Part shown: positions 191-8,471 of the stretch, piece after piece | How positions within the stretch are numbered: position 1 is the first letter of the stretch | Layout: every line of letters starts with the position of its first letter | Source of the DNA: an uncultured bacterium | GTDB lineage: Bacteria > Eisenbacteria > RBG-16-71-46 | DNA: 30,982 bases | Reading direction: 5' to 3' | Assembly: GCA_964608905.1 (NCBI GenBank) | Contig: CAZSQE010000001.1 | Span: forward strand, 1 to 30,982 | Notes under the pieces: model-generated | What the model was told of the DNA's origin: nothing | What the model saw: only the letters and a program-made list of their open reading frames with translations | Databases searched by the model: none | Made by a program: the position numbers and the translations under genes

Positions 191-1159
191 ATGCACCGCC
201 GCCCCCCCACCCTGTCGCTCCTCCTCGCGCTGCTCCTGCCGGCGGTCGCGGCCGCCCAGGTCCCCGCCTACCTCACGCAGTGGGGCGGCTACGGCAGCGG
301 CAGCGGGCAGTTCAACCACCCCGAGGGCGTCGCGGTGGACGCCGGCGGCACCGTCTTCGTCGCCGACAACCTGAACAACCGCGTCCAGGTCTTCACCAGC
401 GGCGGCGTCTACATCACCCAGTGGGGCGGCTACGGCAGCGCCGCGGGGCAGCTGAGCGGCCCCTTCGGCGTGGCGGTGGACGGCCAGGGTCACGTCTTCG
501 TGGCGGACACCTACAACCACCGCGTGCAGGTGTTCGGGAGCGGCGGGACCTGGATCGGCCAGTGGGGCGGCTTCGGCAGCGGTCCGGGGCAGTTCAACAA
601 GCCCATGGGCGTGGCGGTGAGCGCCGCGGGCACCGTCTACGTCAGCGATTACCTGAACCACCGCGTGCAGGTCTTCCAGAGCGGCGCCTACATCGGCCAG
701 TGGGGCGGCTACGGCGCGCAGGACGGGCGGTTCAACTGCCCGGCGGGCGTGGCCCTCGGCCCCGGCGGCGAGGTCTACGTCGCGGACCAGTTGAACCACC
801 GCGTGCAGGTCTTCGACGCCGGCGGCGCGCTCCTGCGCACGTGGGGCGCGTACGGCACCGGCGACGGGCAGCTCAGCGGGCCGAGCGGCGTGGCCGTCGA
901 TGGGAACGGCCACGTCTACGTGGCCGACGGCTACAACGACCGCGTCCAGGTCTTCAGCGCCGACGGCACCTACCGCACGCAGTGGGGCGTGAGCGGCACC
1001 GGCAGCGGGCAGTTCGACCGGCCGCTCTTCCTCGCGCTGGACCCCAGCGACAACGTGTTCGTCGTGGACACCCGGAACCACCGCGTGCAGATGTTCGCCG
1101 CGGTCCCGGTGCCGGTGCGGTCCGCGAGCTGGGGCCGCATCAAGACGCTGTACCGGTGA
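191..1159 (+). CDS. Secreted NHL-repeat six-bladed beta-propeller protein with a C-terminal WGRIKTLYR tail
   Basis: Signal peptide MHRRPPTLSLLLALLLPAVAAA, then six repeats of QWGGxGxxxGQFxxPxGVAVD...VYVADxxNHRVQVF. Start placed at ATG 191 rather than 101 because the signal peptide begins there. Confidence 0.9.
   Translation: MHRRPPTLSLLLALLLPAVAAAQVPAYLTQWGGYGSGSGQFNHPEGVAVDAGGTVFVADNLNNRVQVFTSGGVYITQWGGYGSAAGQLSGPFGVAVDGQGHVFVADTYNHRVQVFGSGGTWIGQWGGFGSGPGQFNKPMGVAVSAAGTVYVSDYLNHRVQVFQSGAYIGQWGGYGAQDGRFNCPAGVALGPGGEVYVADQLNHRVQVFDAGGALLRTWGAYGTGDGQLSGPSGVAVDGNGHVYVADGYNDRVQVFSADGTYRTQWGVSGTGSGQFDRPLFLALDPSDNVFVVDTRNHRVQMFAAVPVPVRSASWGRIKTLYR
278..1097 (+). repeat. Six intragenic NHL repeats, about 141 bp period
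   Basis: The (cag/acg)tggggc unit starts at 278, 419, 560, 698, 839 and 980 (spacings 141, 141, 138, 141, 141). Confidence 0.9.
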
Positions 1160-1293
1160 GCCCGGCCCGGCCGTCCGGCCGGGTCGCGCGGGGCGCCGGA
1201 GCCGCCGGGGCGCGGGGATGCGCCGCGGCGCCCGGCCCGGGTACAATCGTGGGACGCCCATCCCGGCCGCCGACATCCTCGAGGAGCCCCCAC

Positions 1294-4200
1294 GTGACCC
1301 GCCCCAGCCCGCTCTCGCTCGCCGCGGCCGCGCTCGCGGTCATCGCCCTGCCCGCCGCGCTCTTCGGCGGCCCCATCACCATCGGCCCCGGTCCCGCGCT
1401 CGGCACCGACCGCGCCGGCGTCACCTGGCACCAGGACTTCCAGGACTGGCTCCCGACCGACTGCCGCGCCCTCGACGAGGCCGGCACGGTGGACACGAAG
1501 TACCTGTACGGCGACGGCTACGACGACTCGCGCGACATCGTGGCGTTCTACCACCGCGAGGAGAGCGGCAACCTCTACTTCCGCGTGGACCTCTACGACC
1601 TCGCGCTGGGCGCCGAGCACGGCTACCTCGACCTCTACGTCGCCATCGACGCGGCGCCGGGCGGGCAGAGCTACCTGCCGGACTTCCTCGACTGCACGAC
1701 CGACCGGCCGTGGGAGCTGTGCGTCAACGTCTACCAGTCGGGCACCACGTACGGCAGCGACTACCGGATCTACGACGCGTCCTGGGGCAACGTCACCGAC
1801 GCCTACCTCGGCTCGTACTTCAACAGCCAGCTCGACGCGGTCGAGTTCGGCATCACCCGGCAGGCCCTGCTGAACGCCGGCTGGAACGGCAGCTCGCCGC
1901 TCACCTTCCAGGTGTTCACGGCGAAGGACGGCGGGACCTCGTCGTGCCCCGGGCACAGCAAGCTCACCGACGCCATCGAGGACCACGACCGAGGCTGCTC
2001 GGACGGCGTGCTGAACGGCGGCACCGCGTCCACCGCGCAGGCCGGCGTCGTCCACTACGCCTCGATCGCGCACGGCAACCAGTCGGTCAACAAGGCCGGG
2101 GACATCGGCGCGCACATCTACGACCCGCCCGCGAACACCGGCATCGGCGGCGGCACCGGGTTCCTGCGCACGCTCGACACGCACGAGATCTTCGGCGTGC
2201 CGCTCAACGTCCACCCCAGCGGCACGCTCACCATCGCCTGCAACTGGGCGCGGCGCCCGGGCGGCGCCGCCGACCCGCAGGACGGGCCGAGCTTCCTGAC
2301 GCGGGTGCGCGACTTCGTGGACGCCGACCAGGCCGTGCGCCCCGGCTCGCTCATCGGCGGCGTGCTGGCCGAGCACATCATGCCGTACTTCGAGGGGCCG
2401 GTGAACGCGGCGTCGCTGGTGGTGACCGACAGCCTGAACCAGGTGGTCTACGGCGTGAGCGCGGCGGACGCGAAGGTCATGCACGTGCCCGAGCGCGTCA
2501 TCCGCTCGCAGAGCACCGGGCTCGCGCCGCTCGACGGGCACACCTTCGAGGACATCGCCGCCAGCCCCTACGCCGCCACCTACCTCGACGAGGTCACCCA
2601 CCTGCACTGGTGGTTCCACCCCGGCGAGAGCTGCACCCCCGACCAGGGCTACCGGCACAAGGTGCACAAGATCAACGGCGTCCACTGCTTCATGATCAAC
2701 GACCGCGAGGACCAGGCCAAGTTCGGCAATCACGACGGCGGCGCGGTGATGGACACGCGCTACAGCCTGCTGCAGAAGGCGCTCTACGGGAACTCGAGCG
2801 AGATCGTGGTCGTGTTCGACGACTGGGAGGCGCTGGCCGGCAAGTCGTTCGACCCGGTGCAGGGCGTGAGCGTGCCGAACAACAACCCGAACCAGTACCA
2901 CAACACCATCCGCTGGCTCGCCAACCACCCCTGGGTGCGCATCGCGAACCTGAAGGACCTGCTGGCGCTGGCGCTGCAGAACCCCTCGGCGTTCGTGATC
3001 GACCACGGCACGCGCCACGACCTGTCCATCCAGACCTACGAGTGGCTCAAGCACGCCAGCGAGGACTCGTACCACTACTGGTACTACAACTCGAACGGCG
3101 GCTTCACCGGCAACGAGCAGAGCTTCTACGACCTCGTGCCGGTCATCACCGGCGAGCAGGGCGACTACCACGCCCGCGGCGAGACCCCGGCGCAGGACGG
3201 CCCGCCGCTGCCGAGCGGCATGAAGCACGGTGACCTGAACACCCCCGGCACCCTCATGTACGAGGCGTGGCAGGCCCTCGCGAACGCGCCGCACGGCCGG
3301 CTGCGCGACCTCGGCGTCGCCTCGTACCTGGCGATGATCTACGAGACCGCCTGGCACGAGGAGGACGAGGCCGACTACACCGACACCGACTGCTACGGCG
3401 CCTGGACGAACCCCGACGACACCTGGGACGGCGTGAACACCTGGGCGCTGCGCCTGCAGAACCACGTGCGCGGCGTCGGCCTCTACGCCGCGGCGGCCGC
3501 CTGGGCCGACAGCGCGCGCCACAGCCTGCTGGGCGACGCCACCCTGACGCGGGCGGTGGACCTCGACTGGGACGGCGAGGCCGAGTACGTCGTCCGCAAC
3601 CAGGCCGGCTTCGCGGTGTTCGAGCGCTACGGCGCCCGCTGCGTGCTGGCCTGCGCCTACGACGTGTCGTCCGACGCGGCCGAGGTCGTCGTCGGCGCCC
3701 CCGTCACGAACCCCTCCGCCCCCGGCGAGGAGGAGTACACCGGCGCCGGCGCCAACCGCTGCTCGGCCTTCAAGGAGATGAACGGCGGCGGCTACGCCGA
3801 CGCGGTCTACACCGCGGTCGCGGTGGCGGACGGCTGGCGCTTCACCAGCCCCGACGGCCTGGTGCAGAAGACCGTGACCATGGCGCCCTACAGCCGCACG
3901 CTGCGGGCCGCCTACGTCGAGGCCGTGAGCGGCGCGCTCTACGTGCGGCTCGGCCTCTCCCCCAACCCGCTCGACCTCATGCTGCACGGGCAGTCGCACC
4001 TCGCCGGCTGGTTCCCCTCGGCGAACGAGTACAAGCTCACCAACACCAGCGGCCGCGGCGCGGCCGTGGTGGCGTGGCCGGCGGGCGTGACCTTCAACCC
4101 CGCCCCGAGCTGGTCCGGCAGCGACCGGCGCAACCTGGCGCTGACCGAGGAGGTCGAGCTGTCGGGCGACGGCTCGTTCGAGATCGAGCTGGTCCTGCTC

Positions 4201-4527
4201 GCCGACACCACCGGCATCGCCGTGGACGTGCCGGGGACGGTGGCGACCGGCACGTTCTCGCTCAGCGGCCCGGTGCCCTCCCCTGCGCGCGGCGCGGCCC
4301 GGCTCGAGCTGACCCTGCCCGAGCGGCAGCGGGTGCGCGTCGCGGTCGTGGACCTGCAGGGCCGCCGCCTCGCCACGCAGGACCTGGGCGAGCGCGAGGC
4401 CGGGCTCGTGCGCGTGGAGTTGGCGCCGCGCGGCGACGACGGCGCCGCCCTCGGCCCCGGACTCTACTTCGTACGGGTCGAAGCGGGCCCGCGCGCGACG
4501 ACGCGACGGTGGGTGGTCGTGCGGTGA
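1294..4527 (+). CDS. Secreted GH57-like glycoside hydrolase with an N-terminal DOMON/glucodextranase-like region and a C-terminal FlgD-Ig/T9SS-type domain
   Basis: GTG at 1294 follows GAGGAG (1281-1286) and opens a signal peptide. GH57-like conserved regions: HGNQ, EHIMPY, MHVPERV (candidate nucleophile Glu), VVFDDWE (candidate acid/base Asp). C-terminus PVPSPARG...VVDLQGRRL...GLYFVRVE matches the FlgD-Ig/CTD pattern. ORF-track sequence upstream of 1294 is a shadow of the NHL gene. Confidence 0.7.
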   Translation: MTRPSPLSLAAAALAVIALPAALFGGPITIGPGPALGTDRAGVTWHQDFQDWLPTDCRALDEAGTVDTKYLYGDGYDDSRDIVAFYHREESGNLYFRVDLYDLALGAEHGYLDLYVAIDAAPGGQSYLPDFLDCTTDRPWELCVNVYQSGTTYGSDYRIYDASWGNVTDAYLGSYFNSQLDAVEFGITRQALLNAGWNGSSPLTFQVFTAKDGGTSSCPGHSKLTDAIEDHDRGCSDGVLNGGTASTAQAGVVHYASIAHGNQSVNKAGDIGAHIYDPPANTGIGGGTGFLRTLDTHEIFGVPLNVHPSGTLTIACNWARRPGGAADPQDGPSFLTRVRDFVDADQAVRPGSLIGGVLAEHIMPYFEGPVNAASLVVTDSLNQVVYGVSAADAKVMHVPERVIRSQSTGLAPLDGHTFEDIAASPYAATYLDEVTHLHWWFHPGESCTPDQGYRHKVHKINGVHCFMINDREDQAKFGNHDGGAVMDTRYSLLQKALYGNSSEIVVVFDDWEALAGKSFDPVQGVSVPNNNPNQYHNTIRWLANHPWVRIANLKDLLALALQNPSAFVIDHGTRHDLSIQTYEWLKHASEDSYHYWYYNSNGGFTGNEQSFYDLVPVITGEQGDYHARGETPAQDGPPLPSGMKHGDLNTPGTLMYEAWQALANAPHGRLRDLGVASYLAMIYETAWHEEDEADYTDTDCYGAWTNPDDTWDGVNTWALRLQNHVRGVGLYAAAAAWADSARHSLLGDATLTRAVDLDWDGEAEYVVRNQAGFAVFERYGARCVLACAYDVSSDAAEVVVGAPVTNPSAPGEEEYTGAGANRCSAFKEMNGGGYADAVYTAVAVADGWRFTSPDGLVQKTVTMAPYSRTLRAAYVEAVSGALYVRLGLSPNPLDLMLHGQSHLAGWFPSANEYKLTNTSGRGAAVVAWPAGVTFNPAPSWSGSDRRNLALTEEVELSGDGSFEIELVLLADTTGIAVDVPGTVATGTFSLSGPVPSPARGAARLELTLPERQRVRVAVVDLQGRRLATQDLGEREAGLVRVELAPRGDDGAALGPGLYFVRVEAGPRATTRRWVVVR

Positions 4528-4570
4528 CGCGCGTGACGTTCGAGCACTACGTGAAGGTCGCGCTGCAGGC

Positions 4571-5440
4571 TCACGGCAGCACGGCGACGCGGTGGACGCG
4601 GGTCGTCCCGGCGGCGGCGAGGCGGACGAAGTAGACGCCGGCCCCGACGCGGTCCCCGCGCTCGTCGCACAGGTCCCAGCGCGCCGAGTGGTCGCCGGCG
4701 GCCACTCGGGCCACCAGGAGCGCGCGCACGAGCCGGCCGCTCACGTCGTGCACGGCCAGCGCGGCCTCGCCCGCGGCCGCGAGGGAGAAGCCGAACTCCA
4801 CCGCGCGGGACGCGGGATTCGGGCGCGGCGGTTGCAGTGCCACCTGCAACGACGCCGGCTCCGGGACGTCCGCCGCGGGCTCCTCGACGAGGTCGAGGAA
4901 GTCCACGCGAGTGAGGCCCGGATCGCCCAGCCGGAGCAGGCGCACCGTGTACTCCCCGGCGGGCAGTTGCAGCGGCGCCCCGGACCGGACGCAGTCATAG
5001 ACGGCGTCCACGCACCAGACGCCCCCCCCGGGCGGCGTCGCGAGGGTGTCGGCCGGCAGCCCCAGCGCGCGGGCGGGGATGAAGAACTGCACGACGAATC
5101 GGCGCACGAGGTTGATGGCGCCAGCCGACCGCAGGGAGTCACGGAAGGTGAAGTCGTCGGGCAGCCAGACCTGCCACTCGATGTAGTCGCCGGCGCAGTC
5201 CAGCCCGTTCATCCCGACGTAGTTGCGGGCGCTCGCGCAGGAGCCGGCCTCGATGGGGTCCCCGCCCTCGTTCCACCACGACCAGGCGTCCTCGGCCTCG
5301 AGCTGGATGACCGTGCGGGCCGAGGTCCCCGGTGCGCACACGAGAGCGGCCAGGAGCGCCAGGCCCATGGCGAGACGGGCGAGCCCCGGCCCGGCGGGGC
5401 GCCGGCGGGGCGGCCGGACAGGAAGCACGGGTTCCCGCAT
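4571..5440 (-). CDS. Secreted protein with a CBM-like domain and a C-terminal FlgD-Ig/T9SS-type domain
   Basis: ATG at 5440 follows AGGAGGAG. Signal peptide, then IQLEAED (carbohydrate-binding-module-like start). C-terminus PRPNPAS...VHDVSGRLVRAL...RWDLCDERGDRVGAGVYFVRL. Confidence 0.75.
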   Translation of the reverse strand: MREPVLPVRPPRRRPAGPGLARLAMGLALLAALVCAPGTSARTVIQLEAEDAWSWWNEGGDPIEAGSCASARNYVGMNGLDCAGDYIEWQVWLPDDFTFRDSLRSAGAINLVRRFVVQFFIPARALGLPADTLATPPGGGVWCVDAVYDCVRSGAPLQLPAGEYTVRLLRLGDPGLTRVDFLDLVEEPAADVPEPASLQVALQPPRPNPASRAVEFGFSLAAAGEAALAVHDVSGRLVRALLVARVAAGDHSARWDLCDERGDRVGAGVYFVRLAAAGTTRVHRVAVLP

Positions 5441-5606
5441 CCGCGGACTCCTCCTTCCGGTCAAGGATAGGCCCCGCCTGTCCGCAGGGACAAGGAGAAC
5501 CGGTCGGGCCGCGTCCCGGCGCGGCGGCCCGGGGCCAGAGGGCGCCGCGTTGCGCCGGCGGGCGAACGGTGCTAGAGACCTCCCGTAGCTGGCCACGGGA
5601 GGAAGG

Positions 5607-7655
5607 ATGCCGTCTCCTCGGTCCATCTGTTCGCGGCGTGGAGCGCTCCGGTCGCTCCTCACCGGCCTCGCCCTGGGAGGCTGGGTGCGCGCGGCCTGCG
5701 CGCTCGGCCCGGGTGACGTCGCTCCCGCGTTCGTGCTGCCCCGGCTGGACGGAGACGGCACGGTGGCCGCGCCCGCGCTCTTCGCCCAGAGCCGCCTGAC
5801 CGTGCTCGTCTTCTGGAACCGCGGCTGCCCCGAGTGCACCGCCGTCGCCTTGGGGATGCAGGAGCTGGTGGACTCGCTCGCCACGGCGGACGCGCGCGTG
5901 GTCGGCGTGCCCTTCGGTCCGGACGACGCGCACTCGATCCGGGAACAGCTGCGGCAGAACCGGGTCGCCGTTGCCCAGCTTTGGGACGAGACGGCGAGCG
6001 TCGCGGCGCGCTATGAGCTGGGACTGCAGCACCTGCGGGTCTTCCTCGTGGATGCCGGGTCGTGCGTGCGAGCGGCCTTCGACGACCAGATCCCGGACCT
6101 CTTCGTGTCCGTCCTGCCCGAGGCGCGGCGCCTGCTCGCGGCACCCACCGCGCCGACGACCGGTCGGGGCGCAGCGGAGCCGGCCCCCGCCGCCGGAGGC
6201 GACGCGGCGCCGGGGGCCGCGCCCGCGGGGGCCCCGCACGCGGAGGCGCTGGTCCCGGCCCCGGCACGCGTCGAGCCGGCCGAGGTGGTCCGCTCGGCGC
6301 TGGGGCCGGTCCGGCTGGACGCGCGGATGAAGCTGCTGTCCACCGAGGGGGCGCGCAGCGGGGACCGCGGCCTCTACAACGAGACGCTGGAGAGCGGCGC
6401 GCTATGGCTCCACCGCTACGAGGTCCGCGTGCCGCTGGAGCTGGTGCCGGAGATCGAGTTCGTGCCGTGGCTGAGGGTGAGCAACGAGGTGGACGAGATC
6501 CTCATGGAGGGGGCCGAGCAGTTCAGCAACCGTTCCGGCACGGCCAGCCTCCAGCTGCGCCATGGGTCCTCGCGGGCGACGCTCGGGGCCTTCCCGCTGC
6601 GCGTGGCCCCGCTGCTGCTGCAGCGCTGGGACGCGGCGGACGCGCCCCCGCTCGGTGGCGTGTCGGGCTGCGGTTGCGGTGGCGGCGGGAGCGGCGTGAG
6701 CCAGGCCAGCCTCGAGGTCCTGGGGCCGGAGTACGTCTTCGAGGGGATCGCCGCCAGCCACGGGCGGCGCTGGGTCTCGGCGCACGGGTGGGTGGCGATC
6801 CCCCGCTGGGAGCGCGAGGTGCTGCGAACCGCCCCGGCGCTCGAGCGGCAGAAGGCGCGCTACCGCCGGTTGCTCGCGGGCGCGTACGGCGACCTCGGGT
6901 CGAGCGGCGCGCGGGACGCCGAGTCCGGCCTGCCCTCGCCGATCGGACTGCGCGTCGGGGTCGTCTCCGTCGAGGACGACGCCCGCACGCTCGGGCCCAC
7001 CTCCTACCGCCCGCTGCAGCGCGACGAGCGGGGCTGGGTCGTGCAGGCCCGCGTCGCGCCGTGGCCGTGGCTGAGCGGCGAGGCGGAGGCCGTGGACTGG
7101 AGGATGGACCAGAGCGGCACCCGCACGGACGCCAGCGCCTACCTGGCCGGCGTGCGGAGCCGCGCGTCGTGGCGGCCCCTCTCGTTCTGGCTCGGCGCCC
7201 ACCGGCTGCGCACGGAGGTGGGGTTCGAGCCGCTCTACCGGGCGCTCACCTACGACCCGAACCAGGACGGCTGGCGCTTCACCGCAGGGGTCGAGGGTGG
7301 AAGATTCCCCGGCACGCGCCGCGAGCGCGTGAGCCTGAGCGGGTTCTACCGCTCCGTGCGCGAGACCGAGGAGCGCGACGCGCCCGGGGTGGGCCGGACC
7401 CGCAACGAGGTCCGCAACGCGGCGGTGGGGGTGCGACCCGTGAGCGACCTCGTGGTCGAGCTGCACGCGACCGAGACCCGCACCGAGCGGCCCCTCACGC
7501 CCATCGAGCGCAGCCGGGGGCTCTCGCTGAACGTGCGCTGGGAACGCTGGTCCTTCCTCGACCCGCAGGTGCGCGCGGACGCCATCCGGCGCGAGGCCTC
7601 GGGCGCCAGCCGGAACATCTGGCAGGCGTCGGCCTGGGTGCGCATGGTGCGCTAG
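5607..7655 (+). CDS. TlpA/redoxin-family thioredoxin domain fused through a Pro/Ala linker to a putative outer-membrane beta-barrel-like region
   Basis: GDVAPAFVLPRLDG...VLVFWNRGCPEC is a TlpA CxxC pattern. The C-terminal ~450 aa has alternating hydrophobic strands rich in Trp, Tyr and Arg. GGAGGAAGG lies directly before the ATG. Confidence 0.7.
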   Translation: MPSPRSICSRRGALRSLLTGLALGGWVRAACALGPGDVAPAFVLPRLDGDGTVAAPALFAQSRLTVLVFWNRGCPECTAVALGMQELVDSLATADARVVGVPFGPDDAHSIREQLRQNRVAVAQLWDETASVAARYELGLQHLRVFLVDAGSCVRAAFDDQIPDLFVSVLPEARRLLAAPTAPTTGRGAAEPAPAAGGDAAPGAAPAGAPHAEALVPAPARVEPAEVVRSALGPVRLDARMKLLSTEGARSGDRGLYNETLESGALWLHRYEVRVPLELVPEIEFVPWLRVSNEVDEILMEGAEQFSNRSGTASLQLRHGSSRATLGAFPLRVAPLLLQRWDAADAPPLGGVSGCGCGGGGSGVSQASLEVLGPEYVFEGIAASHGRRWVSAHGWVAIPRWEREVLRTAPALERQKARYRRLLAGAYGDLGSSGARDAESGLPSPIGLRVGVVSVEDDARTLGPTSYRPLQRDERGWVVQARVAPWPWLSGEAEAVDWRMDQSGTRTDASAYLAGVRSRASWRPLSFWLGAHRLRTEVGFEPLYRALTYDPNQDGWRFTAGVEGGRFPGTRRERVSLSGFYRSVRETEERDAPGVGRTRNEVRNAAVGVRPVSDLVVELHATETRTERPLTPIERSRGLSLNVRWERWSFLDPQVRADAIRREASGASRNIWQASAWVRMVR

Positions 7656-7713
7656 TCCGGTGACGGCGCGGTGGGATGACGCACTCCCCCACACCGCGAG
7701 CCACCACGCGCAG

Positions 7714-7752
7714 CGGAGCCCGGCGGTGGTGCGAACGTGCCGCCGGGCTCCG
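7714..7752. terminator. Hairpin between convergent genes, probably a bidirectional terminator
   Basis: Perfect 13-bp inverted repeat cggagcccggcgg (7714-7726) / ccgccgggctccg (7740-7752). No clear U-tract. Confidence 0.6.
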
Positions 7753-7781
7753 TCCGGTTCGCGCGGTCTGCCGCCCGCGCC

Positions 7782-8471
7782 CTACCGATAGAGCGTCTTC
7801 ACCCGGCCCCAGGTCTCCGACATCGCCGGGACCACGGTGCACTCCGGGTTCGGCGGGCTGGCCGAGTTGCGGATCGGCAGGGTCGCGTCGCAGGCGGTGA
7901 TGGTGAAGTCCGACGCGTTGTCGTCGTTGTCGGTCATCCCGCCGAGCTTTCGGACCGCGGCAGTGGTGTTGCTCATCGCCGCGGTCGGGGCGCTGCCCTC
8001 CCAGCACTGGGTGGAGCCCCCGGTGGCCACGAGATCCACGAAGCTCGTGGTGCAGTCGCCCGACGTCCCGCTGGTGACGAGGCCGATCTTGCACGCCGTC
8101 GCGCTCATCGCGATGGTGCCGACCGCGTCCGGGGTGACCGGCAGCGGCTGCGCCGCCGTGTTGGAGCCCGACGCGCACTGGACGAGATAGTAGCCGCAGG
8201 CCGGGATCGTCGCGCCCGTCGGGAACTGGACGTAGAAGTTGGCCGTCCCGCCAAAGGTGGTGCCGGCGGATGACGCGTACAGGATCGCCCAGCCGCCGAT
8301 GTTGACGGGCGTGCCCGAGCTGTTGAACAGCTCGACGAAGTCGTAGCGGTAGTAGGCGCCGGTGTTGCCGCCTCCGCCGTACACGATGCTGATGCGGACC
8401 GGATTGGCCGCGAACGCCGCCGTGGCGACGAGCAGGCCGAGGACGACGAGGGCGATGGCAGTCTTGCGCAT
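7782..8471 (-). CDS. Secreted lamin-tail-domain (LTD) protein with a C-terminal WGRVKTLYR tail
   Basis: Signal peptide MRKTAIALVVLGLLVATAAFA. VRISIVYGGGGNTGAYYRYDFVELFNSSGTPVNIGGW matches the bacterial LTD pattern. Confidence 0.85.
   Translation of the reverse strand: MRKTAIALVVLGLLVATAAFAANPVRISIVYGGGGNTGAYYRYDFVELFNSSGTPVNIGGWAILYASSAGTTFGGTANFYVQFPTGATIPACGYYLVQCASGSNTAAQPLPVTPDAVGTIAMSATACKIGLVTSGTSGDCTTSFVDLVATGGSTQCWEGSAPTAAMSNTTAAVRKLGGMTDNDDNASDFTITACDATLPIRNSASPPNPECTVVPAMSETWGRVKTLYR

What the first reader, a model, noticed from the sequence alone, without database searches (positions are those of the whole stretch)
1100..7830. Shared C-terminal tail VP-x(4-6)-[ST]WGR[IV]KTLYR on two unrelated secreted proteins: candidate sorting signal
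Seen: the NHL propeller ends VPVPVRSASWGRIKTLYR (stop 1159) and the lamin-tail protein ends VVPAMSETWGRVKTLYR (stop 7782). Both have N-terminal signal peptides and unrelated bodies. Established: short conserved C-terminal tails on diverse exported proteins define sorting systems (PEP-CTERM, T9SS CTD, LPxTG). Inference: this ~17-aa tail has no transmembrane helix and may be a distinct export or anchoring signal for this lineage; I know of no characterised machinery for it. The two neighbouring FlgD/CTD proteins also enter their CTD through a VP linker (AVDVP, AADVP), which hints at a shared processing site.
Basis: partly seen in the sequence, partly recalled or inferred. Interest (0 to 1): 0.68.

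Follow-up and report, generated by a model that had tools for sequence, protein, structure and literature searches.

The report
Undescribed short C-terminal protein address tag
Two unrelated exported proteins in this window end in a 16-residue tail that proves to be a sharply defined, uncatalogued C-terminal tag. About 34 exported proteins of this uncultured Eisenbacteria-type genome carry it, as do hundreds in allied phyla, so it is probably a new kind of sorting or docking signal whose reader is still unknown.

Summary
The motif W-G-x-[ILVM]-K-x-x-[YFW] occurs 34 times in the six-frame translation of the 2.9-Mb genome. Every occurrence lies within 6 residues of a stop codon; the reversed motif occurs twice.

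The logo is [VT]-P-[AVT]-x3-[ST]-W-G-[RQ]-[VIL]-K-[TS]-L-Y-R-stop. Carriers are small proteins with signal peptides, from about 20 unrelated body families. None also has the FlgD_ig/T9SS C-terminal domain (CTD), which about 104 other, larger proteins carry. One body family occurs with either ending.

AlphaFold2 places the tail outside the folded LTD domain, as a low-confidence linker plus a short helix. Pfam, NCBIfam and the literature searches gave nothing.

The tail is present in 41 of 41 relatives and, with relaxed patterns, nearly throughout the phylum. It also occurs in Fibrobacteraceae, Latescibacterota and Krumholzibacteriia MAGs. All seven genomes tested with at least 12 tails have SprA.

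My best reading is a portable C-terminal signal read by a protein receptor of the envelope, plausibly linked to type IX secretion. No reader was identified. Adjacency to C25 (PorU-like) peptidase genes is only suggestive.

This scan has already reported the same tail on other genomes at least eight times.

The parts
191..1159 (+). Gene for a 322-aa exported six-bladed NHL-repeat propeller that ends in the tail
   Evidence: Translation; frame-aware gene call; Pfam NHL x6 at 3.7e-54; signal peptide MHRRPPTLSLLLALLLPAVAAAQ.
1109..1156 (+). Tail copy 1: VPVRSASWGRIKTLYR, the last 16 codons before the stop at 1157-1159
7782..8471 (-). Gene for a 229-aa exported lamin-tail-domain (LTD) protein that ends in the tail. 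It belongs to the most widely conserved tailed family.
   Evidence: Translation; Pfam LTD at 4.1e-11. Of its 120 best homologues, 117 keep the tail. An LTD protein of this kind is also the conserved tailed protein in the tail-poor family f18.
7785..7832 (-). Tail copy 2: VPAMSETWGRVKTLYR, the last 16 codons before the stop at 7782-7784
   Evidence: In the AF2 model residues 211-229 have low pLDDT (67 and 53), with a helix at 221-228.
1294..4527 (+). Neighbouring 1077-aa exported protein with a FlgD_ig / T9SS type A-like CTD (about 4270-4524) instead of the tail. This is the alternative, long C-terminal signal of the same genome.
4571..5368 (-). Neighbouring 265-aa exported protein with a FlgD_ig / Por_Secre_tail CTD (about 4574-4828)
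   Evidence: match at C1:4610-4825.

Best explanation
The 16-residue ending [VT]-P-[AVT]-x3-[ST]-W-G-x-[VIL]-K-x-L-Y-R-COOH is a portable C-terminal signal. After Sec export (N-terminal signal peptide), a flexible Pro-containing linker presents a short basic, aromatic segment, predicted helical, at the free C-terminus. A dedicated envelope protein is proposed to bind that end and so sort, dock or retain the protein at the cell envelope or surface. In this lineage it marks small single-domain binding-type proteins (NHL propellers, LTD and Cys-rich modules, median 262 aa). Large enzymes use the 80-aa T9SS-type CTD instead. The two endings are mutually exclusive and interchangeable on one body family. 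Shown: the tag exists and is strictly terminal, portable, under strong purifying selection, mutually exclusive with the CTD, distributed across phyla, and co-occurs with SprA.
For: Terminal position: 34 of 34 in this genome. In 41 relatives 679 tails end exactly at R and 54 run on. Of 35 extended tails inspected, 27 have one extra residue and none is followed by a domain.
Abundance and portability: 32 called carriers fall in 20 unrelated body families.
Export: signal peptides are enriched.
Selection: the tail is kept in 117 of 120 LTD homologues while the bodies fall to 41-50% identity, and W221, G222 and K225 are invariant in the 76-sequence alignment.
Not part of a fold: AF2 models the tail as a low-confidence linker plus helix.
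Anchor swap: tailed C279 and C303 share 48-51% identity with C55, which has a linker and a FlgD_ig CTD at the same point. There is no overlap between 32 tailed and 104 CTD proteins.
Protein reader rather than lipid or chemistry: Lys(+4) is replaced by Arg as a block in family f2. Leu(+6) drifts to R, N or H in family f18, where only 1-6 substrates remain. The hydrophobic moment is no higher than in shuffles and mean hydrophobicity is negative.
T9SS context: SprA, PorU, a PorV-like gene next to PorU and four more PorV-like genes are in the genome. SprA is present in all 7 genomes tested with at least 12 tails, including Fibrobacteraceae, Latescibacterota and Krumholzibacteriia MAGs. It is absent from 4 bins with 1-2 stray tails.
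C25 adjacency: C25 peptidase genes sit next to tail genes in 6 of 111 loci, co-directionally downstream in 5, beside 5 unrelated tailed families.
Against: No partner, cleavage, modification or location is shown. Clustering the neighbours of 111 tail loci and 20 f18 loci found no conserved machinery.
The C25 adjacency is weak. About 1-2 loci are expected against 6 seen, and two of the six come from one bin with about 20 C25 genes. In 13 relatives I counted 3 immediate adjacencies among 46 C25 genes, against about 0.5 expected. At least two C25 subfamilies are involved.
Co-occurrence with T9SS is confounded by phylogeny, since all carriers are related FCB-type lineages. No Bacteroidota-labelled record appeared among the 80 listed hits of the collection scan, so the tail is not a general T9SS feature.
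The tail profile has no similarity to the CTD profile (hhalign probability 0.14%).
The helix prediction has low confidence.
Confidence: 0.55

Rival explanations
1. Peripheral membrane or LPS anchor. The basic, Trp/Tyr-containing terminal segment binds anionic lipid or lipopolysaccharide directly, as C-terminal amphipathic helices do in PBP5 or MinD, and so holds small exported proteins on a membrane face without any receptor.
For: Net charge is +2.5, with interfacial residues W and Y. AF2 predicts a short helix after a flexible linker. No receptor gene was found near the tail genes.
Against: The hydrophobic moment at 100 degrees is 0.51, and 31% of shuffles reach it. Mean hydrophobicity is -0.18, so by my recollection of the Eisenberg plot it falls outside the surface-seeking region. 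Invariant W-G and a fixed [VT]P at -7/-6 and [ST] at -1 are more specific than lipid binding needs. In f18 the hydrophobic Leu(+6) becomes R, N or H. The stop codon position is conserved to within one residue.
Confidence: 0.13
2. Docking peptide for assembly onto another secreted protein, in the manner of dockerin-cohesin or strand/helix insertion. The tail plugs small binding modules onto a scaffold or onto CTD-bearing enzymes, including C25 peptidases, which could also let them ride through the T9SS pore as a complex.
For: The carriers are small binding-type modules, often in tandem paralogue arrays (C57 x5, C393, C180). Tail genes often lie beside CTD cargo genes (41 CTD ORFs near 111 loci) and sometimes directly upstream of C25 peptidases. 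In the window the NHL-tail gene lies 135 bp upstream of the 1077-aa CTD protein.
Against: The density of CTD neighbours is about what chance gives: CTD proteins are about 4% of genes. No repeated receptor module was found. This is a sub-case of the main explanation rather than a contradiction of it.
Confidence: 0.12
3. Minimal type IX secretion signal. The tail is an extreme reduction of the CTD itself and is recognised directly by PorV/SprA and cleaved by PorU at the VP linker. This would continue the trend of the 40-55-aa 'short CTDs' of Prevotella intermedia and the 22-residue requirement reported for Hbp35.
For: Functional T9SS signals can be much shorter than 80 aa (PMC11969387). The tail and the CTD are mutually exclusive and swap on one body. 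A V..P-rich junction precedes both endings. All multi-tail genomes tested have SprA.
Against: There is no profile similarity to this genome's CTDs (hhalign probability 0.14%). The tail lacks CTD motifs B, D (GxY) and E as described in PMC11969387. Sixteen residues cannot form the two- to three-strand sheet that binds PorV, and AF2 predicts a helix, not strands. No Bacteroidota-labelled record was among the listed hits of the collection scan.
Confidence: 0.12
4. Periplasmic degradation or quality-control tag, or a protease-regulating peptide. The exposed C-terminal peptide is recognised by a protease (for example a C25 or tail-specific protease) to control the turnover of these proteins or to regulate the protease.
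For: The location is strictly C-terminal, as for C-terminal degrons. C25 peptidase genes are occasionally adjacent. The tail is rich in Arg and Lys, and as I recall (not tested here) some C25 peptidases, the gingipains, cleave after those residues.
Against: A constitutive degron encoded on 20-60 unrelated, highly conserved exported proteins per genome has no obvious rationale. The adjacency is weak and involves several C25 subfamilies.
Confidence: 0.05

Closest known systems
Small tripartite C-terminal sorting domains (LPXTG/sortase, PEP-CTERM/exosortase, GlyGly-CTERM/rhombosortase, MYXO-CTERM/myxosortase; Haft et al., 10.1101/2023.06.07.544157)
   Same: It sits at the extreme C-terminus and occurs many times per genome. 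It has at least three near-invariant signature residues. Carriers have N-terminal signal peptides and unrelated bodies. Homologues carry a different C-terminal signal. The NHL body's best NCBIfam match is the PEP-CTERM protein ScyF (324 bits, below its 350-bit cut-off).
   Different: It has no hydrophobic transmembrane segment and no Arg cluster. It is only 16 residues long and is predicted to be a soluble linker plus a short helix. No cognate intramembrane protease or sortase was identified.
T9SS type A C-terminal domain (TIGR04183 / PF18962, here FlgD_ig-like PF13860) with PorV shuttle and PorU sortase, including the short CTDs of Prevotella intermedia (PMC11969387)
   Same: It is a C-terminal signal without a transmembrane helix, on Sec-exported proteins of a genome with SprA, PorU and PorV-like genes. 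It is mutually exclusive with the CTD and interchangeable with it on one paralogous body. A V/P-rich linker precedes both endings.
   Different: The tail is 16 residues, against 40-90 for a CTD. It is not a beta-sandwich or sheet and has no motif B, D or E. hhalign probability is 0.14%. No Bacteroidota-labelled record was among the hits listed.
Receptor-read extreme C-terminal peptides such as peroxisomal PTS1 (-SKL, PEX5 TPR domain) (from general knowledge)
   Same: It is a short, uncleavable-looking linear motif whose distance to the free carboxyl end is fixed. It is portable between unrelated cargo and has no membrane segment.
   Different: The cell compartment and domain of life differ. 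The motif is longer (10-16 residues) and ends in Arg. No TPR or PDZ-type reader was identified here.

Membership tests
Tripartite small C-terminal sorting domains (Haft criteria, 10.1101/2023.06.07.544157) | [quoted passage not shown] | tested here: met
   34 of 34 lie within 6 aa of the stop. 679 of about 733 tails in 41 genomes end exactly at R.
Tripartite small C-terminal sorting domains (Haft criteria) | [quoted passage not shown] | tested here: met
   34 in this genome, and 4-37 per related genome.
Tripartite small C-terminal sorting domains (Haft criteria) | [quoted passage not shown] | tested here: met
   P(-6) 33 of 34; Y 33 of 34. W, G and K are 34 of 34, but the search pattern fixes those three. 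Independently of the pattern, W221, G222 and K225 are invariant in the 76-sequence LTD alignment.
Tripartite small C-terminal sorting domains (Haft criteria) | Hydrophobic transmembrane segment after the motif | tested here: not met
   The protein ends 8 residues after W-G. Mean hydrophobicity of the segment is -0.18.
Tripartite small C-terminal sorting domains (Haft criteria) | Cluster of 2-5 basic residues at the end | tested here: not met
   There is a single terminal Arg. The basic residues are spread through the motif (R+2, K+4, R+8).
Tripartite small C-terminal sorting domains (Haft criteria) | N-terminal signal peptide on most members | tested here: met
   31 of 34 with a start chosen for a signal peptide. 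By a crude unbiased rule, 21 of 32 against 22% of all genes, p = 1e-7. No trained predictor was available.
Tripartite small C-terminal sorting domains (Haft criteria) | Members include many pairs with no other sequence similarity | tested here: met
   There are 20 BLAST-unrelated body families among 32 carriers.
Tripartite small C-terminal sorting domains (Haft criteria) | Homologues elsewhere lack the signal or carry a different one | tested here: met
   C279 and C303 (tail) against C55 (same body, FlgD_ig CTD). The NHL body resembles the PEP-CTERM protein ScyF.
Tripartite small C-terminal sorting domains (Haft criteria) | Cognate processing enzyme that co-occurs with the signal | tested here: inconclusive
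   No conserved neighbour was found. C25 peptidase adjacency is suggestive only. A phylogenetic profile was not possible because the tag is near-universal in the phylum.
T9SS type A CTD (TIGR04183 / PF18962 / FlgD_ig-type) | Match to the CTD profile (a 70-90 aa Ig-like beta-sandwich with motifs B, D and E) | tested here: not met
   No Pfam or NCBIfam hit for the 30-aa ends at E up to 10. hhalign against the profile of this genome's 104 CTDs gives probability 0.14%. AF2 models a linker plus helix.
T9SS type A CTD | Occurs in genomes that encode the T9SS translocon and sortase | tested here: met
   SprA at 497 bits, PorU at 470 bits (above cut-off) and PorV-like x5 in this genome. SprA is present in 7 of 7 multi-tail genomes.
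T9SS type A CTD | Secretion through SprA, and cleavage and attachment by PorU | not testable with these tools
   This needs proteomics or genetics in an organism that carries the tag.

The most novel reading that the evidence does not exclude
The tail is the address label of a second, undescribed cargo class of the type IX secretion and attachment apparatus in Eisenbacteria, Krumholzibacteriota, Latescibacterota and some Fibrobacterota. On this reading a 16-residue, non-domain signal is read by a lineage-specific adaptor (a PorV-like barrel or a second PorU-like C25 enzyme). That adaptor would carry small folded binding modules to the cell surface, or fix them there, without the 80-aa CTD.
Probability: 0.27. 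Interest if true: 0.78.

Novelty: new variant of a known kind. Interest (0 to 1): 0.64.

Why it matters
C-terminal sorting tags are the main way to predict which proteins a bacterium displays on its surface. Each new tag class found so far has led to a new sorting enzyme. This tag marks roughly 1% of the genes of whole uncultured phyla that are common in soils, sediments and wastewater. No annotation pipeline detects it, and it breaks the usual design rule of motif, membrane helix and basic cluster. An HMM for it would at once re-annotate thousands of 'hypothetical' proteins as envelope or surface proteins. Finding its reader would show either a new branch of type IX secretion or a new non-covalent anchoring mechanism. 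A 16-residue portable tag would also be useful for surface display.

Tried and rejected
1. 'Mini-CTD by homology': hhalign of the tail profile against the CTD profile gave probability 0.14%. Rejected as homology; kept only as a functional rival.
2. Covalent cross-link through the invariant Lys (Lpp-like or isopeptide): Lys(+4) is replaced by Arg in 24 of 28 non-A codons, mostly in family f2, where Arg outnumbers Lys. Rejected.
3. Last strand of the NHL or LTD fold: rejected on the AF2 model and the 20 unrelated bodies.
4. Generic amphipathic membrane helix: the hydrophobic moment is no higher than in shuffles. Downgraded.
5. Conserved neighbour as machinery: clustering of 4,977 ORFs from 111 tail loci gave only CTD cargo, sigma-54-type regulators and ABC ATPases. 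In the tail-poor family f18 the conserved synteny is an ABC transporter with a P-type ATPase, and a sugar-nucleotide cluster. No reader found.
6. A tail-less clade for phylogenetic profiling: f18 looked tail-poor, but a relaxed pattern found 1-6 tails in 36 of 41 genomes. There is no usable contrast inside the phylum.
7. The C25 'second sortase' lead from earlier notes: reproduced as a modest enrichment only.
8. Tail in non-FCB bins (Polyangiaceae, Anaerolineaceae, Woesearchaeota, Kerfeldbacteria): 1-2 copies, some on contigs of about 2 kb, and no SprA. I treat these as probable stray contigs.
9. Literature searches for the peptide strings and for Eisenbacteria with T9SS returned nothing relevant.

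Full report
**What is in the window**

The window has 73% G+C. A frame-aware gene call gives five genes in the region:
- 191-1159(+): a 322-aa protein with a signal peptide and six NHL repeats.
- 1294-4527(+): a 1077-aa protein whose only recognisable domain is a C-terminal FlgD_ig / Por_Secre_tail domain.
- 4571-5368(-): a 265-aa protein with the same kind of C-terminal domain (CTD).
- 5685-7655(+): an AhpC/TSA-type redoxin with a long C-terminal extension that has no family match.
- 7782-8471(-): a 229-aa signal-peptide protein with a lamin-tail domain (LTD).

**Is it more than chance?**

In the six-frame translation of the whole 2.9-Mb assembly, W-G-x-[ILVM]-K-x-x-[YFW] occurs 34 times. All 34 lie within 1-6 residues of a stop codon, and 30 end exactly ...Y-R-stop. 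The reversed motif occurs twice.

An HMM of the 17 tail columns, run against the last 24 residues of all 20,605 ORFs of 60 aa or more, separates 33 hits at 29 bits or more from noise at 13 bits or less.

The logo is tight:
- V/T at -7 and P at -6 (33 of 34).
- A/V/T at -5, and S/T at -1 (34 of 34).
- W and G (34 of 34), R/Q at +2, V/I/L at +3, K (34 of 34), T/S at +5, L at +6, Y (33 of 34), R (30 of 34). The search pattern itself fixes W, G and K. The LTD alignment, which was found through body homology, confirms them as invariant.
- A Cys often sits at -10, closing the body domain.

**Who carries it**

Thirty-one of the 34 ORFs have a start codon followed by a classical signal peptide. By a cruder rule applied without choosing starts, 21 of 32 carriers score positive against 22% of all genes (Fisher p = 1e-7).

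Carriers are small (median 262 aa) and fall into 20 body families unrelated by BLAST. These include six NHL propellers, three LTD proteins, several Cys-rich families and many singletons, and some form tandem arrays.

The genome also encodes about 104 proteins with the FlgD_ig-type CTD, 99 of them at the C-terminus. These are larger (median 623 aa), and none has the tail.

One family shows a direct swap. C279 and C303 (279 aa, tailed) are 48-51% identical over their whole body to C55 (414 aa). After the same last body strand, C55 continues into a linker and a CTD.

**Is it part of a known domain or family?**

No. Thirty-residue ends from five carriers gave no Pfam or NCBIfam hit at E up to 10. 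The full proteins match only their body domains.

A profile-profile comparison of the tail with this genome's CTDs gave probability 0.14%.

I folded the LTD protein with AlphaFold2 and a 76-sequence alignment. The beta-sandwich body has pLDDT above 93. The last 20 residues fall to 67 and 53, and are modelled as an extended VVPAMSET linker followed by a helix at W221-Y228. The tail is therefore an appended linear motif, not a strand of the domain.

**Conservation and distribution**

Of the 120 best homologues of the LTD protein in the 5.8-billion-protein collection, 117 keep the tail while body identity falls to 41-50%. W, G and K are invariant columns.

The DNA pattern for W-G-x-[ILVM]-K-x-[ILVM]-Y-R-stop hits all 41 nearest genomes, 679 times in total, with 0 hits for the reversed control. 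A slightly relaxed pattern hits 183 of the 206 genomes held for the phylum.

The apparent exception, family f18, still has 1-6 tails in 36 of 41 genomes when position +6 is freed. Its variants include WGKIKMRYR and WGWIKANYR. The tailed protein that persists there is an LTD protein of the kind found in this window.

The listed records were mostly labelled Candidatus Eisenbacteria. Others were Fibrobacteraceae, Latescibacterota and Krumholzibacteriia MAGs, and none was labelled Bacteroidota. Those loci hold 142 tailed ORFs.

Five such genomes hold 12-58 tails each. Four oddly labelled bins (Polyangiaceae, Anaerolineaceae, Woesearchaeota, Kerfeldbacteria) hold only 1-2. I take them to be stray contigs, since two of the four (the Polyangiaceae and Woesearchaeota loci) sit on contigs of about 2 kb.

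**How terminal is it?**

In the 41 relatives, 679 tails stop right after the Arg and 54 continue. Of 35 continuing tails inspected, 27 have one extra residue, three have two or three, and five have 10-63. The five long ones look like lost stops, and none is followed by a domain. The distance to the free carboxyl end is therefore under selection.

**Tests that bear on mechanism**

1. The invariant Lys is not chemically essential. In family f2, Arg replaces it in most tails. This argues against a Lys-based cross-link and for recognition by charge and shape.
2. The segment is not a convincing lipid-seeking helix. The mean hydrophobic moment at 100 degrees is 0.51, and 31% of shuffles reach it. 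Mean hydrophobicity is -0.18 and net charge is +2.5.
3. In lineages with few substrates the motif drifts (f18). Where there are dozens of substrates it is frozen. This is what one expects of a signal co-evolving with one protein reader (inference).
4. The type IX apparatus is present. SprA scores 497 bits summed and PorU 470 bits (above its cut-off), with a PorV-like gene next to PorU. There are four more PorV-like genes, and three further C25 peptidase genes at C130, C140 and C79. SprA is found in all seven genomes tested that have 12 or more tails, and in none of the four bins with stray tails. This co-occurrence is confounded by shared ancestry.
5. Neighbourhoods show no conserved machinery. 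Clustering ORFs around 111 tail loci gave only CTD cargo (at about chance density), regulators and ABC ATPases. The conserved f18 synteny is unrelated transport and sugar-nucleotide genes.
   - In my independent sample, 6 of 111 loci have a genuine Peptidase_C25 gene beside the tail gene. Five are co-directionally downstream, and they lie beside five unrelated tailed families.
   - With about one C25 gene per Mb in these genomes, I expect 1-2 such loci.
   - Two of the six loci come from one bin with about 20 C25 genes.
   - In 13 relatives with full tail lists, I counted 3 immediate adjacencies among 46 C25 genes, against about 0.5 expected.
   - At least two C25 subfamilies are involved.
   - This is suggestive, not established.
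7. Thirteen to 17 residues before the PNP motif of the CTDs, V (up to 24 of 85) and P (up to 26 of 85) are enriched, but in a loose register. In the tail the [VT]P is fixed.

**Comparison with what is known**

Measured against Haft's attributes of small C-terminal sorting domains, the tail meets six. These are terminal position, many copies per genome, an invariant signature, signal peptides on carriers, unrelated bodies, and homologues with other signals. It lacks the two structural ones, the transmembrane helix and the Arg cluster.

Against the T9SS CTD it shares genomic context and interchangeability, but not sequence, size or predicted structure. Published T9SS signals can be as short as 40-55 residues. 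A 22-residue requirement has been reported for Hbp35 (PMC11969387). A functional link is therefore conceivable, but homology is not supported.

Searches for the peptide strings and for Eisenbacteria with type IX secretion found nothing relevant.

**Verdict**

This is a real, sharply defined, widespread and uncatalogued C-terminal tag. It most likely acts as a receptor-read sorting or docking signal for small exported proteins, possibly as an accessory of type IX secretion.

The same tag has already been reported by this scan on other genomes (for example e1-5109266, e1-5228770, e1-1252211/2, e1-5213794, e1-5043658, e1-3372402, e1-5106619). Those notes were used only as leads.

Noticed in passing
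window 5607-7655 (+): This is an AhpC/TSA-redoxin domain (residues 35-155) fused to a C-terminal region of about 450 aa. The region has no Pfam or NCBIfam match and ends ...WVRMVR. It may be an outer-membrane barrel or another envelope module. The gene lies between the CTD genes and the tailed LTD gene.
   Followed up: no
window 1294-4527 (+): This 1077-aa exported protein is conserved-looking, with a Trp/Tyr/Asp-rich, enzyme-like body. It has no family match except its C-terminal FlgD_ig CTD.
   Followed up: no
G000 contigs C95, C60, C17, C21, C32; C130, C140, C79: The genome holds five PorV-like barrels, one of them next to PorU. It also holds four Peptidase_C25 genes: PorU plus three paralogues. 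The PorV-like gene on C32 lies between a CTD cargo gene and an atypical tailed lipoprotein (...TWGRLKDIYAAR).
   Followed up: partly
related genomes G025, G027, G029 (family f2): There is a lineage-wide switch of the tail from W-G-x-I-K-x-L-Y-R to W-G-x-I-R-R-L-Y-R. This could be used to find the co-varying reader.
   Followed up: partly
G209 (bin of locus L033, 2.6 Mb): This bin shows an extreme expansion, with 58 tailed genes and about 20 Peptidase_C25 genes. Tandem arrays of tailed paralogues lie directly upstream of C25 genes.
   Followed up: partly
G000:C79 (- strand ORF ending ...TPTRSSTWGATTSRSRR...) and C57 (- strand, ...ISVGQLKARYATPAPTK): These are two possible decayed or frameshifted tail copies, scoring just below the family (13 and 7 bits).
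   Followed up: no
L141 (G204:C1:816126-832155): In the tail-poor family f18, one conserved tailed protein has a weak Reeler-like match. It sits between a UDP-GlcNAc 2-epimerase and a DegT-type aminotransferase, which is a surface-polysaccharide context.
   Followed up: no
I saw the lower G+C (64%) at 14-18 kb in the composition profile, but did not examine it.
   Followed up: no
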